Shown here: one piece after another, positions 12,001 through 15,000 of the stretch
How the letters are laid out: each line of letters opens with the position of its first letter
How positions within the stretch are numbered: the stretch's first letter is position 1
Source of the DNA: an uncultured Methanosarcinales archaeon
GTDB taxonomy: Archaea; Nanobdellota; Nanobdellia; Woesearchaeales; B54-G15
NCBI GenBank assembly: GCA_964519225.1
Contig: CAZFJK010000006.1
Location: 1-41,544 of the forward strand
DNA: 41,544 bases
Reading direction: 5' to 3'
Made by a program: the position numbers

Positions 12001-15000
12001 TTGAACAAGGTTGGTGAATTCGGAAGAAATTCCAGTTTTGTCATCATTAAAAAAAATGTTTTTTCTGTTTCACGTGGATTCTTGCCGTAGCGTTTATCAG
12101 CTTTTGCAACTGTAGTTGCTACACGCATAAAAAGCTGCTTTGGTGTTTCTATGATTTTTCCTGTTTCGTCTTTTAGTAAATAGCGAGCTTTAAGAACTTC
12201 AAGAGCGTTTACTGTAAGCTTCGGTTCTAGCGGCAAACCGAGTTCTTGTTTAATTTTTCTTAGTTCTGCTTTCTTTTTTCTGTAAGCAGAGTATTCGTTT
12301 GCTAAACGAATGTATTTTTTCTTTTTTAGAAGCGCAATAACTCTATCCTGAATTTGTTCAATCGATGGAATCTTTTCTCTGTCAAAGAATTCTTTCTGAA
12401 GCTGCTTTGAAATGTCTCGCGTTATTGTTTTAGCAATGCGCTTTGCTTCATCTTTAGAAATGCCCATTGCAATAGCTGCTTTTTGAATTGCATGTTCTAT
12501 CTTTCTTGGCTGAAATGATTCAAGCTCGCCTGTTCTTTTTCTGACAAACCTATGCATTAAGTTTAGAATAAAAAGGAAGTATAAAAAAGTTGATGCTAAG
12601 ATTTTGATTTAATTAGCTTGCTGTATTGACCTTCTAATAGAATTTTCTGCTGTTCGCTCCAGTCCTTATCTGAATGCGTTTTGATATAGTTTGCCCAGAA
12701 TTTAATGAAGTTTATTCTATCTTCTTTTGATGTTTTTCCTGGAATGAGTTTCATTTTTCTTTCAGCTTTTTGCATGGCTTTTTCAGATTTTACTTTTACT
12801 TTAATTTTCTAATTTTCCATCTAACAAGAACTGGAATAGCTACTGCGATCATTCCTAGGCAGAGCCACTGACCTTTGCTTAAGCCAAGGAAATAGTAATC
12901 CCAATAGCGGAAGAATTCGATTGAGAAGCGAAGAATGCCGTAAAGCAGAATGAAATGCCAGAACACAATGCCATCTCTAAGCTGCTTTGCGAACTTTCTT
13001 TTGAGAATGAACCTTAAGATAAAGAAGTTAAAAAGGTTTTTTCCTGCTTCGTATAGCTGCGAAGGATGCCTACAACCAGGTGCTGTTGGAAAACGAACAC
13101 ACCAAGGAACCTTGCTTATTTTTCCGTAAAGCTCTGCGTTAATAAAATTTCCAATTCTGCCAAAGAATAAAGCCAGCGATGTTGAAACAGCAAGTACATC
13201 AGCAAGTTGGTAAAATGAGATTTTTCGTTTCTTGCAGAAAATCCAGCCCATTAAAACAGCGCCAAGCAAACCGCCATGAAAACTTAAACCGCCATGCCAG
13301 ATAGCAAAGATTTCTAAGGGATGCGTGAAATAATAGCGTGGTTCGTAGTAAAGAACTTGCATTGCTCTTGAGCCGAGCAAAACGCCAAGAAGCAAATAAA
13401 GTATAAGTTCTGCTAGATGTTCTCGTTTCAGGTTTTTTATTCTGTTTGTTTTGATGGCATTTAGAAGAAAAAGATATGCAAGGAAAAACCCAAATACAAA
13501 GATGATGCCATACCATCTAACCTGAAAAGGACCGACTGAAAAGGCAACTGGATTTATTCGGTGGGTAAACATTTGTTTTCCCTTATTCTTCTAGCAAGAA
13601 CGATTAAAAATTTTCCGATTGATTCCTGATCCAAAGACTGAAGCAGAAGTAGGCAGCATGTGTTCTAGAATGATTGACATTTCGCTTTTTCATAAACTTC
13701 CGATATATATCCAACATAGTGTATTGAGGGATGGAATTGTTTTGTATTTGAAGAAAGAAGATGAAGATTTTTGTAGAAAAGTCGTATTTAAAGTTATAAG
13801 AAACTACCTTGAAATGGAATGGATTTACAGAAAACGACTTAAAGAGGTGTTTGGATGAAGCGAAAGAACAAAAAATTAGAAAAAATAAAAGATTAACAGG
13901 TTCCGCTCGAAGCAGTTGATTCTGCGCTTAATGTTTTACTACAACCTTTTAAGTTCGAGTTGTATTGACAGAATTGCTGTTTTATTGCCTCAGCTGTTCT
14001 TCTTCCTGTGCTTTCATCGACGCCACTAATTGTATATTTGTTGTTTACTAAGAAAGTTGGACTTGCTCCTATCTTAAGTTGTTGTGCAAGCTTAATATCT
14101 TCACTCAATAGTTTTTTTCCTTCATCGCCTTCGGCGCATTTCTTGATTTTATCCACATCCATGCCTGCTTTCTTTGCACAGCTTTCCCAATCCTTGCTTT
14201 GAATGTCTTTGTTTCTACACCAAATATAGTCAAGATATTTGTTGCCTTTTTTGTAGTATTTCTTTGCACAAAGCTGTCTTATATTTTCTTCTACCTCTGC
14301 TGGTCCGTGTAATGATACAAATGTTCCGTTCGAGATTTCATTTGCTATGTAGTGAATGTCGAATTTTATATCTTTACCAAAGGCATCAAGAACTTCTTTC
14401 ATCAAATTTACTGCCTGTGTCCCAAATGGACATTGGCTCATTATGAATAGGTCAAGTTTTCCTTTTTCTTCTGGTCTNNNNNNNNNNNNNNNNNNNNNNN
14501 NNNNNNNNNNNNNNNNNNNNNNNNNNNNNNNNNNNNNNNNNNNNNNNNNNNNNNNNNNNNNNNNNNNNNNNNNNNNNCAATACGCAAAGAATAGTAATCT
14601 CCAACCTGATCAAGATATGGTTGTAATTGGGCATATGCTGCTTGATTTTCAACGTCTTTATTGAATAAAACTGCTGGTAGATATTGAAGATTTAGTTCTT
14701 CATAAAGCGCTTTTCCTTCAGGGCTGCTATAGTCAAGTTCTTCGAATTCTATGCCCGGCAGAATCATTGAAAGCTGTGCTTTTAGCTGAGTAACGTCGCA
14801 TTCCTTACAGCGCTGATCGTTTAGTACAATTGCCTTAAAGCTAGTCACTGCTTTTCCTGTAGGACCAAATCTAAAGCCGTGTGTTAAAATCGATAAGATC
14901 AGCAGAATACCAAGAATAAACGTTAGGATTTTCCATATTCTTCCTGGCTTTGCTTCTTTCTTGATTGGTTCAGGAGAAACAGCAGTTACTTCCTTATTGT

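What a model noticed while it worked through the whole genome (the two positions that open the first line are those of the whole stretch)
12796..13572. Bacterial-type Lgt and LspA in a DPANN archaeon
The genome encodes a full-length prolipoprotein diacylglyceryl transferase (Lgt, C6:12796-13572) and a lipoprotein signal peptidase II (LspA, C8:20779-21183) with the catalytic motifs kept. It also has a few lipobox proteins as likely substrates. The pair is a core feature of its order, and Lgt is also found through most of its phylum. Published work states that no archaeal Lgt or Lsp homologue has been identified.
Evidence so far: - Pfam: LGT 5.9e-73 over the full profile and Peptidase_A8 2.2e-22. 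- PDB: 5azb at 2e-37 and 6ryo at 2.6e-10, with the motif stretches aligned. - Context: archaeal neighbours and the rRNA operon on the same contig. - Relatives: Lgt 38/41 and LspA 38/41 in the order; Lgt 112/121 in a phylum sample. - Substrates: lipobox hits 7/983 against 0.6 shuffled; strict pattern 13 against 2 in G000 and 17 against 3 in G026. - Literature: PMC12462473 passages; searches 32, 38, 119.
(Added by a program. Inside this text positions count along the whole contig: contig position 1 is position 1 of the stretch shown here. "Call 12" and the like, gene names such as g00115 and contig names such as C1 are that model's own, and its searches are not shown. The text may have been shortened before it was handed on; [...] marks where a part breaks off. 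The agent that wrote the report below was given it as the finding of a first reader that could run no searches.)

Follow-up and report, generated by a model that had tools for sequence, protein, structure and literature searches.

The report
Bacterial-type lipoprotein machinery in DPANN archaea
A tiny symbiont-like archaeon, and most of its relatives, carry the two bacterial enzymes that fasten proteins to the membrane by a lipid, although papers from 2018, 2025 and 2026 say archaea have neither.

Summary
Window 12796-13572 (minus strand) encodes a canonical 258-aa Lgt. It scores Pfam 245.6 bits and TIGR00544 202.8 against a cut-off of 118.9, and every essential E. coli residue is kept. It lies on the same contig as an archaeal 16S/23S operon. 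LspA sits on contig C8.

Both genes are near-universal in the order: Lgt 112/121 and LspA 111/121. They occur together in 15/21 sampled genomes of sister orders.

New here: the archaeal lipidation enzyme AliA (DUF63) was not found in G000. It was not found in any of the 93 Lgt-positive genomes, only in 3 genomes that lack Lgt and LspA. The AliA paper's own supplement shows Woesearchaeota with 12-60 predicted lipoproteins and no AliA, so Lgt/LspA fills a gap that paper states.

A ~320-aa protein family, found in 59/61 order genomes, keeps a lipobox cysteine in 53/56 N-termini.

G000 lacks detectable phospholipid synthesis genes, so the lipid donor must be scavenged. Its chemistry (archaeal ether or bacterial ester) is open.

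Databases already auto-name these genes, but no paper found reports them. The enzymes are known and the host domain is new. No activity is shown. G000's LspA lacks a ~20-residue periplasmic hairpin.

The parts
12796..13572 (-). lgt: prolipoprotein diacylglyceryl transferase, 258 aa, bacterial type
   Evidence: Pfam PF01790 245.6 bits. TIGR00544 202.8 bits against cut-off 118.9. PDB 5azb 2e-37. E. coli Y26, H103, R143, N146, E151, G154, Y235, R239 and E243 are all kept. AlphaFold model pLDDT 93.8, and the only significant PDB fold match is 5azb at TMq 0.78. GC3 is 0.371 against a genome median of 0.310, sd 0.053.
6801..7013 (+). Small acidic 70-aa protein with signal peptide and lipobox (…IAGC|K…): candidate Lgt/LspA substrate encoded in the window
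   Evidence: Lipobox hit. Three further protein clusters at 69-90% identity keep an invariant AGCKV. No Pfam family.
23541..25020 (-). Archaeal 16S rRNA, showing that the contig carrying lgt is archaeal
   Evidence: Rfam RF01959, 1495 bits, full length.
20331..23281 (-). Archaeal 23S rRNA, serving the same purpose
   Evidence: Rfam RF02540, 2763 bits, full length.

Best explanation
The archaeon matures lipoproteins by the bacterial two-step route. Sec-exported precursors end their signal peptide in a lipobox (L-[AVST]-G-C). Lgt (window 12796-13572) transfers a glyceryl-lipid from a phosphatidylglycerol-type donor to the cysteine thiol. LspA (contig C8) then cuts the signal peptide in front of the lipidated cysteine. 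No Lnt-type third step was detected.

The gene pair entered an ancestor of this order and several sister orders from Bacteria, has since been inherited vertically, and stands in place of the archaeal enzyme AliA. The genome shows no phospholipid synthesis genes, so the donor lipid would be taken from a host or the surroundings.

Shown: gene presence, intact catalytic residues, fold, phyletic pattern, conserved lipobox substrates, and no detectable AliA.

Inferred: activity, direction and number of transfers, displacement of AliA, and the nature of the lipid.
For: (1) Family membership and intact active sites.
- The residues that PMC13251419 (passages) lists as absolutely required are Y26, H103, R143, N146, G154 and R239. 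Y26, R143, N146, G154 and R239 are invariant in 42/42 archaeal Lgt rows. H103 is kept in 38/42, with F in 3 and Y in 1.
- In LspA both aspartates (NLIDR and FNIAD) are invariant in a 51-row alignment, as are N40, G42, G84, N88, D100 and N111; D27, Q28 and K31 (DQxxK) are kept in at least 90% of rows. The model has pLDDT 91.6 and matches only LspA structures: 6ryp, 6ryo and 5dir.

(2) The genes are not contamination.
- lgt lies on the same contig as the archaeal rRNA operon.
- Single-contig genomes G016, G025, G085 and G097 carry both genes.
- Base composition is ordinary for the genome.

(3) Phyletic pattern.
- Order sample: Lgt 112/121 and LspA 111/121, each genome from a different family, 104/121 with both.
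- Phylum sample of 101: 89 have both, 4 Lgt only, 2 LspA only, 6 neither. Of 21 other-order genomes, 15 have both and 6 have neither; none has only one.

(4) Complementarity with AliA.
- PF01889/DUF63 matched 0 of 93 Lgt-positive genomes. It matched 3 of the 8 Lgt-negative ones (G152, G174, G177), all of which also lack LspA. G000 has no match at E<=1.
- The controls that ring are M. jannaschii, H. volcanii and M. acetivorans.
- In PMC12462473 Supp. Data 3 (read), arCOG02177 is 0 in 7/7 named Woesearchaeota, in AR15 and AR20, and in 24/25 Pacearchaeota. It is 1 or 2 in Nanoarchaeum, Nanobsidianus, all 7 Aenigmarchaeota and the 3 nanohaloarchaeal genomes, and 1 in 11/13 Micrarchaeota and 4/5 Diapherotrites.
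- In Supp. Data 1, six Woesearchaeota rows show 12/42, 12/42, 20/49, 60/117, 35/86 and 37/100 predicted lipoproteins per secreted proteins.
- That paper's discussion asks for 'additional lipoprotein lipidation pathways' in exactly such genomes.

(5) Substrates.
- The L007 family (317 aa in G000) is found in 59/61 order genomes.
- Of 56 N-termini from 30 genomes, 45 match a lipobox regex. By eye, 8 more have a Cys directly after the hydrophobic stretch. The other 3 have no recognisable signal peptide. The Cys is followed by a low-complexity linker.
- Genome-wide lipobox counts against shuffles: G000 17/1035 against 3.33 (max 7). G025, which has both enzymes, 12/458 against 2.41 (max 5). G134, which has neither, 4/622 against 1.53 (max 5) with non-canonical hits. 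G152, which has DUF63, 0/322 against 0.21.
- Candidates include a 3058-aa surface protein, a cadherin/Ig-domain protein, a GH113 and a DJ-1/PfpI protein.

(6) Single origin.
- In a tree of 116 Lgt rows, 42 archaeal rows separate from the 74 nearest bacterial rows by one branch, SH-aLRT 99.

(7) Scavenged lipid.
- No CDP-alcohol phosphatidyltransferase, CarS or CN-hydrolase (Lnt) was found. The weak PcrB and UbiA hits turned out to be TrpA and an AI-2E transporter.
- PMC8421398 also reports GGGPS and DGGGPS absent in Woesearchaeota (passage).
Against: - No biochemical, expression or proteomic evidence exists.
- G000's LspA scores 64.4 bits on TIGR00077, below the cut-off of 73.95. It and its four nearest relatives lack ~20 residues between DQxxK and NTGxxFG that all other 46 rows have. 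Substrate handling may therefore differ.
- The strict lipobox pattern is not enriched in G000: 4 against 1.06, max 4.
- The genome comparison covers only four genomes, three of them in part.
- Lgt is missing from 9 and LspA from 10 of the 121 order genomes. Several of these are over 95% complete.
- The DUF63 model is weak on fast-evolving DPANN, scoring 30 bits in G152, so a very diverged AliA could be missed.
- Bacterial Lgt uses sn-1,2-diacyl phosphatidylglycerol (recalled). An archaeal donor has the opposite glycerol configuration and ether bonds. Only one conserved column sets the archaeal clade apart (E. coli L134 becomes Pro in 40/42).
- With three plasmid-borne Firmicutes Lgts and one Bacteroides Lgt added, those long rows fall among the archaeal rows and archaeal monophyly is not recovered. 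An AU test does not reject it, however: dlnL 14.2, p 0.288. The donor lineage is unresolved.
- 15 of the 42 'archaeal' tree rows are unnamed database proteins that I assumed to be archaeal.
Confidence: 0.75

Rival explanations
1. The genes are intact, but the pathway is not classical lipoprotein maturation. Lgt might carry out another glyceryl-lipid transfer. In the G000 lineage the shortened LspA might be inactive or retargeted, with lipobox proteins handled by an unknown archaeal enzyme.
For: G000's LspA is below the TIGR00077 cut-off and lacks a periplasmic hairpin. No phosphatidylglycerol synthesis gene was found. PMC13251419 notes bacterial Lgt subgroups that may use other substrates (passage).
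Against: All essential Lgt residues are invariant across 42 archaeal rows. Across sister orders Lgt and LspA are present or absent together, 15 with both, 6 with neither and none with one only. Lipobox cysteines are conserved in a family present in 59/61 genomes. The shortened LspA stays conserved down to 72% identity with its catalytic residues intact.
Confidence: 0.12
2. The pair was inherited vertically from the last universal ancestor and lost in all other archaea, rather than transferred from Bacteria.
For: In the first tree, archaea and the sampled bacteria are two sides of one branch, which a root on that branch would also explain.
Against: None of the 4 archaeal control genomes has a match. 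A published RefSeq survey found none in archaea (PMC13251419). Within the class, 6/21 other-order genomes lack both genes and three of those carry DUF63. Archaeal Lgts are 39-48% identical to Desulfobacterota, Cloacimonadota and Proteobacteria copies, which is as close as to archaeal copies from sister orders at 37-46%. The median path from archaea to these bacteria is 2.44, shorter than the 3.55 from Firmicutes/Actinobacteria to the same bacteria.
Confidence: 0.05
3. There were several independent transfers between bacteria and these archaea, in either direction, rather than one ancient acquisition.
For: In the second tree, Firmicutes plasmid copies and a Bacteroides copy nest among the archaeal rows, one grouping at SH-aLRT 98. 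Several genomes carry 2-5 PF01790 matches, some of them divergent.
Against: The nesting rows have very long branches (stem 1.18, end branch 1.63-1.65), and most of the placements are weakly supported at 0, 51 and 71. The AU test does not reject archaeal monophyly, p 0.288. The main copy gives one clan at 99 in the first tree.
Confidence: 0.1
4. The genes come from bacterial contamination or mis-binning of the assembly.
For: The genome is a 53-contig assembly, and LspA lies on a different contig from the rRNA operon.
Against: lgt shares a 41.5-kb contig with the archaeal 16S/23S operon. LspA lies beside eIF-1A. Four single-contig relatives carry both genes. Both genes are present in about 92% of 121 families. 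GC3 is ordinary for the genome.
Confidence: 0.01

Closest known systems
E. coli Lgt (phosphatidylglycerol:prolipoprotein diacylglyceryl transferase; PDB 5AZB/5AZC)
   Same: The Pfam and TIGRFAM family is the same. The signature GRxGNFINxELxG and the HGGL motif are kept, as are all six residues required in E. coli. The predicted fold is the same multi-helix membrane fold, TMq 0.78.
   Different: Identity is 33%. The segment matching E. coli 155-200, which holds the head domain, is 23 residues against 46, as in the nearest bacterial copies with a median of 24. Pro replaces E. coli L134 in 40/42 archaeal rows. The host is an archaeon with no detectable phosphatidylglycerol or archaeal-lipid synthesis. 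Activity is untested.
Bacterial LspA / signal peptidase II (S. aureus 6RYO/6RYP, P. aeruginosa 5DIR)
   Same: The Pfam family is the same, both catalytic aspartates and the DQxxK and NxGxxF motifs are kept, and the predicted fold has four TM helices, TMq 0.65-0.77.
   Different: The protein is 134 aa. It lacks ~20 residues of the periplasmic hairpin between TM1 and the NTG motif, a deletion shared only with its four closest relatives. It scores below the TIGR00077 cut-off. The naming of the hairpin as the 'beta-cradle' is recalled, not taken from a call.
AliA/AliB (arCOG02177/arCOG02178) of Haloferax volcanii, the archaeal lipoprotein lipidation enzymes (PMC12462473)
   Same: The task is the same: lipidation of the lipobox cysteine in an archaeon. 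The lipobox consensus is the same.
Other bacterial-type membrane-lipid genes already reported in DPANN (PlsC/PlsY, GpsA, GlpK; PMC6431249)
   Same: These are bacterial-type membrane-lipid genes present in Woesearchaeota-like genomes, attributed to transfer from Bacteria (passages). PF01553 was found in 35/61 order genomes here.
   Different: That paper's passages on DPANN and Woesearchaeota, the only parts read, deal with phospholipid genes and do not name Lgt or LspA. The Lgt/LspA pair is far more uniformly kept, about 92% against 57%.

Membership tests
Lgt (PF01790 / TIGR00544) | Profile score above the curated cut-offs over the full length | tested here: met
   Pfam 245.6 bits against 24.9, profile 1-239/240. 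TIGR00544 equivalog 202.8 against 118.9.
Lgt (PF01790 / TIGR00544) | Signature motif G142-R143-L-G-N146-F-I-N-G-E151-L-W and the H103-G-G-L motif (as defined in PMC13251419) | tested here: met
   The window protein has GRIGNFINAELYG and SFHGGL aligned to 5azb. R143, N146, E151 and G154 are kept in 42/42 archaeal rows.
Lgt (PF01790 / TIGR00544) | The six residues required in E. coli: Y26, H103, R143, N146, G154, R239 | tested here: met
   All six are present in the window protein. Across 42 archaeal rows, five are invariant and H103 is kept in 38/42.
Lgt (PF01790 / TIGR00544) | Lgt membrane fold as in 5AZB | tested here: met
   AlphaFold2 model with pLDDT 93.8 and pTM 0.88. Foldseek's only match at E<=0.001 is 5azb, 1.4e-14, TMq 0.78. 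This is a predicted fold, not a solved one.
Lgt (PF01790 / TIGR00544) | Transfers the diacylglyceryl group of phosphatidylglycerol to the lipobox cysteine | not testable with these tools
The donor lipid in this organism is unknown, and no CDP-alcohol phosphatidyltransferase was found.
Lgt (PF01790 / TIGR00544) | Lipobox-bearing substrates are encoded in the same genomes | tested here: met
   16-17/1035 against about 3.3 in shuffles. The L007 family keeps the Cys in 53/56 N-termini, 45 by regex and 8 by eye. The window's 70-aa protein has an invariant AGC. The strict pattern alone was not enriched.
LspA / signal peptidase II (PF01252 / TIGR00077) | Pfam score above the gathering cut-off | tested here: met
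   79.5 bits against 25, but only profile positions 37-140/142 are matched.
LspA / signal peptidase II (PF01252 / TIGR00077) | NCBIfam equivalog cut-off | tested here: not met
   TIGR00077 scores 64.4 bits against a cut-off of 73.95 for G000's copy. NCBI nevertheless names a 93%-identical protein signal peptidase II.
LspA / signal peptidase II (PF01252 / TIGR00077) | Two catalytic aspartates (GNxxDR and FNxAD); their catalytic role is recalled | tested here: met
   NLIDR and FNIAD align to 6ryo. D91 and D114 are invariant in 51 rows.
LspA / signal peptidase II (PF01252 / TIGR00077) | Four-TM fold with the complete periplasmic sheet | tested here: inconclusive
   The model has four helices and matches 6ryp, 6ryo and 5dir at TMq 0.65-0.77. 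About 20 residues of the periplasmic hairpin are absent in G000 and its 4 nearest relatives.
AliA/AliB (arCOG02177/02178; DUF63 PF01889) | A DUF63-family membrane protein is present | tested here: not met
   No match at E<=1 in G000. 0/93 Lgt-positive genomes match. The published arCOG table gives 0 in Woesearchaeota.
Lnt (apolipoprotein N-acyltransferase) | CN-hydrolase domain protein | tested here: not met
   PF00795 has no match in G000, while the controls ring in 12/14. Other N-acylation systems were not searched.

The most novel reading that the evidence does not exclude
These archaea run a bacterial Lgt on lipids from across the 'lipid divide'. One possibility is that the unmodified bacterial-type active site accepts host-derived archaetidylglycerol (ether-linked, opposite glycerol configuration) and makes archaeol-anchored lipoproteins. 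The other is that the cells hold bacterial-type phosphatidylglycerol, scavenged and remodelled with their PlsC-like acyltransferases, which would imply mixed membranes or bacterial hosts. In both cases a whole archaeal radiation replaced the ancestral archaeal lipidation enzyme AliA with the bacterial pair, and uses it to anchor, among other proteins, a giant surface protein of the kind proposed (recalled) to mediate host contact.
Probability: 0.35. Interest if true: 0.85.

Novelty: new member of a known kind. Interest (0 to 1): 0.7.

Why it matters
Three papers state that archaea have no Lgt, LspA or Lnt homologue: FEMS Microbiol Rev 2018, Nat Commun 2025 and mBio 2026 (passages read). The absence is used to argue that archaeal lipids require different enzymes. 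Here a large archaeal order, with at least 121 sampled families, and several sister orders carry both genes with intact catalytic residues. They do so exactly where the archaeal enzyme AliA is missing although lipoproteins are predicted.

This corrects the stated distribution and supplies a candidate for the 'additional pathway' the AliA authors asked for. It also makes a direct question testable: can a bacterial-type Lgt use an archaeal ether lipid, or do these archaea carry bacterial-type phospholipid?

It also bears on how host-dependent archaea build their contact surface. In addition, inhibitors aimed at Lgt or LspA would not be strictly bacteria-specific.

The limits are that the enzymes are of a known kind, databases already auto-annotate them, and nothing functional has been shown.

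Tried and rejected
- RNA evidence: the look-up of sequencing runs (kind rna) listed no RNA holder.
- The strict lipobox pattern [LVI][ASTVI][GAS]C is not enriched in G000: 4 against 1.06, max 4. The organism's lipoboxes often have F, Y or L at position -2, so I used the PROSITE-like rule instead.
- The apparent PcrB (GGGPS) and UbiA (DGGGPS) hits in G000 were rejected. They are TrpA and an AI-2E transporter.
- The L007 lipoprotein query found nothing in five Lgt-lacking genomes. There is no positive control in those genomes, so this shows little.
- Donor lineage: the first tree left the base of the bacterial side unresolved. Adding plasmid-borne Firmicutes, Actinobacteria and Bacteroides copies made it worse through long branches.
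- Two AU-test runs were wasted because an unsorted row order rebuilt the tree each time. The test finished.
- Not attempted: an LspA phylogeny, conservation of gene order around lgt, a full Pfam annotation of G000, and complex prediction (no binding claim is made).
- Archaeal phyla outside this class could not be sampled with the genome search. For them I rely on 4 control genomes and the published RefSeq survey.
- bioRxiv supplements and PDF supplements were not readable, and most subscription journals are not in the library. A prior report there cannot be excluded.
- Literature searches behind the 'not in print' claim are. Term look-ups in five DPANN or Woesearchaeota genomics papers are.
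Full report
**What is there**

The window holds an open frame at 12796-13572 on the minus strand, 258 aa. It matches Pfam LGT over the whole profile: 5.9e-73, 245.6 bits, positions 1-239 of 240. It passes NCBI's equivalog model TIGR00544, 202.8 bits against a cut-off of 118.9, and aligns to E. coli Lgt 5azb at 2e-37.

An AlphaFold2 model built on 51 homologues has pLDDT 93.8. Its only significant match among solved structures is 5azb, E 1.4e-14, TMq 0.78.

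The same 41.5-kb contig carries full-length archaeal 23S and 16S rRNA genes. The assembly, G000, is 869 kb, 97% complete with 1.6% contamination. lgt has GC3 0.371 against a genome median of 0.310 (sd 0.053), so its composition gives no sign of recent arrival.

The second enzyme, LspA, lies on contig C8 next to eIF-1A. It matches Pfam Peptidase_A8 at 79.5 bits and PDB 6ryo at 3.2e-10. Its nearest database relative is 93% identical, 135 aa, and named signal peptidase II in Candidatus Woesearchaeota. That supports the 134-aa form starting at the second Met.

**Are the enzymes intact?**

PMC13251419 (passages) lists Y26, H103, R143, N146, G154 and R239 as absolutely required in E. coli Lgt. It defines the signature G142-R-L-G-N-F-I-N-G-E151-L-W and the H103-G-G-L motif.

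I aligned 42 archaeal and 75 bacterial Lgt sequences, numbered on E. coli Lgt taken from the K-12 record. The window protein keeps all of these residues. Across the archaeal rows Y26, G104, R143, N146, E151, G154 and R239 are invariant. H103 is kept in 38/42, Y235 in 36/42, and E243 in 28/42 with D in 9. The only column that sets the archaeal rows apart is E. coli L134, which is Pro in 40/42.

For LspA, a 51-row alignment shows both aspartates and N40, G42, G84, N88, D100 and N111 invariant. DQxxK is kept in at least 90% of rows. The model has pLDDT 91.6 and four helices, and matches only LspA structures.

Two points count against G000's copy. It scores 64.4 bits on TIGR00077, below the 73.95 cut-off. 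It and its four nearest relatives (72-94% identical) also lack about 20 residues between DQxxK and NTGxxFG that the other 46 rows have.

**Distribution**

In 121 genomes of the order, each from a different family, Lgt is found in 112 and LspA in 111. Among high-quality genomes both figures are 86/92, and 104 genomes have both. These tallies include the unpublished genome G112, which has both.

In a phylum sample of 101 high-quality genomes, all from one class, Lgt is in 93 and LspA in 91. That breaks down as 89 with both, 4 with Lgt only, 2 with LspA only and 6 with neither. Of the 21 genomes from other orders, 15 have both and 6 have neither; none has only one. Among the 14 control genomes both families ring only in the 10 bacteria.

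**Relation to the archaeal enzyme AliA**

The AliA paper places arCOG02177 in supercluster COG01967. From memory this corresponds to Pfam DUF63 (PF01889).

The model finds nothing in G000 at E<=1. In the 101-genome sample it matches 3 genomes (G152, G174, G177), all of which lack both Lgt and LspA. It matches none of the 93 Lgt-positive genomes. Its controls ring only in M. jannaschii, H. volcanii and M. acetivorans.

The paper's own Supplementary Data 3 (read) gives the same picture. arCOG02177 is 0 in all 7 named Woesearchaeota, in AR15 and AR20, and in 24 of 25 Pacearchaeota. It is present in Nanoarchaeum, Nanobsidianus, all 7 Aenigmarchaeota, the nanohaloarchaea, and most Micrarchaeota and Diapherotrites.

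Supplementary Data 1 lists 12/42, 12/42, 20/49, 60/117, 35/86 and 37/100 predicted lipoproteins per secreted proteins for six Woesearchaeota, and 0 for ARMAN-4 and ARMAN-5. The discussion notes genomes with many predicted lipoproteins but neither AliA nor AliB, and asks for additional pathways. The bacterial-type pair is the obvious candidate for these lineages.

**Substrates**

On my own ORF call of G000 (1035 ORFs), a PROSITE-like lipobox rule gives 16 hits against 3.25 in shuffled N-termini, max 8 of 100. The strict pattern gives 4 against 1.06, which is not enriched.

The hits include a 3058-aa surface protein (laminin-G, F5/8-C and Ig-like domains), a cadherin/Ig protein, a GH113, a DJ-1/PfpI protein and a metallo-beta-lactamase-fold protein.

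One hit, a 317-aa protein with no Pfam family, has homologues in 59 of 61 order genomes, often in tandem arrays. Of 56 N-termini from 30 genomes, 45 match a lipobox regex. By eye, 8 more carry a Cys directly after the hydrophobic stretch, and 3 have no recognisable signal peptide. The sequence after the Cys is a variable low-complexity linker.

The window's own 70-aa candidate (6801-7013) has three relatives at 69-90% identity with an invariant AGC.

A small genome comparison points the same way. G000 gives 17/1035 against 3.33. G025, with both enzymes and 400 of 774 kb read, gives 12/458 against 2.41. G134, with neither enzyme, gives 4/622 against 1.53 with non-canonical hits. G152, with DUF63 and 280 of 491 kb read, gives 0/322. 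Four genomes are an anecdote, not a test.

**Origin**

The nearest bacterial Lgts found in one genome per species are from Desulfobacterota, Cloacimonadota, Nitrospirota, Proteobacteria, Gemmatimonadota, Bdellovibrionota, Sericytochromatia and Peribacteria. They are 39-48% identical to the window protein, as close as archaeal copies from sister orders at 37-46%.

In a tree of 116 rows, the 42 archaeal rows and the 74 bacterial rows are separated by one branch, SH-aLRT 99. Fifteen of the archaeal rows are unnamed proteins that I assumed to be archaeal.

When I added plasmid-borne copies from Enterococcus, Bacillus, Lactococcus, Collinsella and Bacteroides, plus E. coli, the result changed. The three Firmicutes rows and Bacteroides, all on very long branches, fell among the archaeal rows, mostly with weak support. 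An AU test does not reject archaeal monophyly, p 0.288.

I read this as one old acquisition from Bacteria with the donor unresolved. Several transfers are not excluded.

**The lipid problem**

G000 has no detectable CDP-alcohol phosphatidyltransferase, CarS, GGGPS or DGGGPS. This agrees with PMC8421398 for Woesearchaeota. The donor must therefore come from outside the cell.

Haloferax lipoproteins carry a diphytanylglyceryl group (PMC13251419 passage). The Lgt active site in these archaea is indistinguishable from the bacterial one. Either it tolerates the archaeal backbone, or the cells contain bacterial-type phosphatidylglycerol.

G000 has a weak PlsB/PlsC-like acyltransferase. PF01553 occurs in 35 of 61 order genomes and rings only in bacterial controls. 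PlsC in DPANN is already in print (PMC6431249). No Lnt-type CN-hydrolase was found.

**What is known**

NCBI and JGI pipelines already name close homologues Lgt and signal peptidase II in Candidatus Woesearchaeota and Nanoarchaeota.

I found no paper that reports them. Six full-text searches returned none that reports an archaeal Lgt or LspA. Five DPANN or Woesearchaeota genomics papers were checked only by term look-up: four hold none of the relevant terms, and in the fifth (PMC6431249) I read only the passages on DPANN and Woesearchaeota, which do not name them. Three papers state the opposite. Subscription journals and unreadable supplements may hold a report I could not see.

**Verdict**

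This is a real, intact, vertically maintained bacterial-type Lgt/LspA pair in a large archaeal radiation, complementary in distribution to AliA, with conserved lipobox substrates. The enzymes are of a known kind and their setting is new. Function and lipid donor remain to be shown.

Noticed in passing
window 14478-14577: A run of 100 N lies inside ORF 14441-15163 (minus strand, 240 aa; acidic N-terminus, then a hydrophobic stretch). This part of the neighbour gene cannot be read.
   Followed up: no
window 13893-14441 (-) and 14441-15163 (-): Close beside lgt, about 320 bases from its start codon, lies a DsbA/GILT-like thioredoxin-fold protein (Pfam DSBA 5.6e-10, GILT 6.5e-10). It abuts a membrane-anchored ORF with no Pfam family. 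This may be an extracytoplasmic thiol-oxidoreductase pair next to the cysteine-lipidating enzyme. Conservation of the adjacency was not checked.
   Followed up: no
window 28727-28879 (-): Rfam calls a third tRNA of 153 bases, 46.8 bits, which ARAGORN does not report. It is probably an intron-containing archaeal tRNA.
   Followed up: partly
G000:C3:35414-36367 (L007) and loci L121-L150: A ~320-aa lipoprotein family with no Pfam match is present in 59/61 order genomes. It often occurs as tandem arrays of 2-5 paralogues, with a conserved PF[IV]GGTxG[LI] motif after the lipobox and linker. Its function is unknown.
   Followed up: partly
G000:C5:6897-16076 (L009): A 3058-aa surface protein (Laminin_G_3, 3-keto-disaccharide hydrolase-like, F5/8 type C, LVIVD and Ig-like domains) starts with a signal peptide and a lipobox-like …LYGC. 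It may be a lipid-anchored giant adhesin.
   Followed up: no
G000:C7:14795-15970 (L017); order sample: A bacterial-type glycerolipid acyltransferase domain is present: PF01553 at 31-32 bits and a weak PlsB-like match. PF01553 is found in 35/61 order genomes, some as tandem ~215-aa PlsC-like pairs, and rings only in bacterial controls. PlsC in DPANN is already published (PMC6431249).
   Followed up: partly
L020, L021, L023 (genomes G186-G188): Three MAGs titled 'uncultured Methanosarcinales archaeon' carry Lgt copies that nest inside a tight Woesearchaeota subclade. They are only 1.0-1.2 Mb and also have LspA. The taxonomic label is probably wrong.
   Followed up: partly
order and phylum samples (e.g. 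G101, G130, G082, G050): Some genomes have 2-5 PF01790 matches, including divergent copies at 50-125 bits. These are extra Lgt paralogues of unknown role.
   Followed up: no
window 35250-40499 (+): A 1749-aa ORF in the window was not examined.
   Followed up: no
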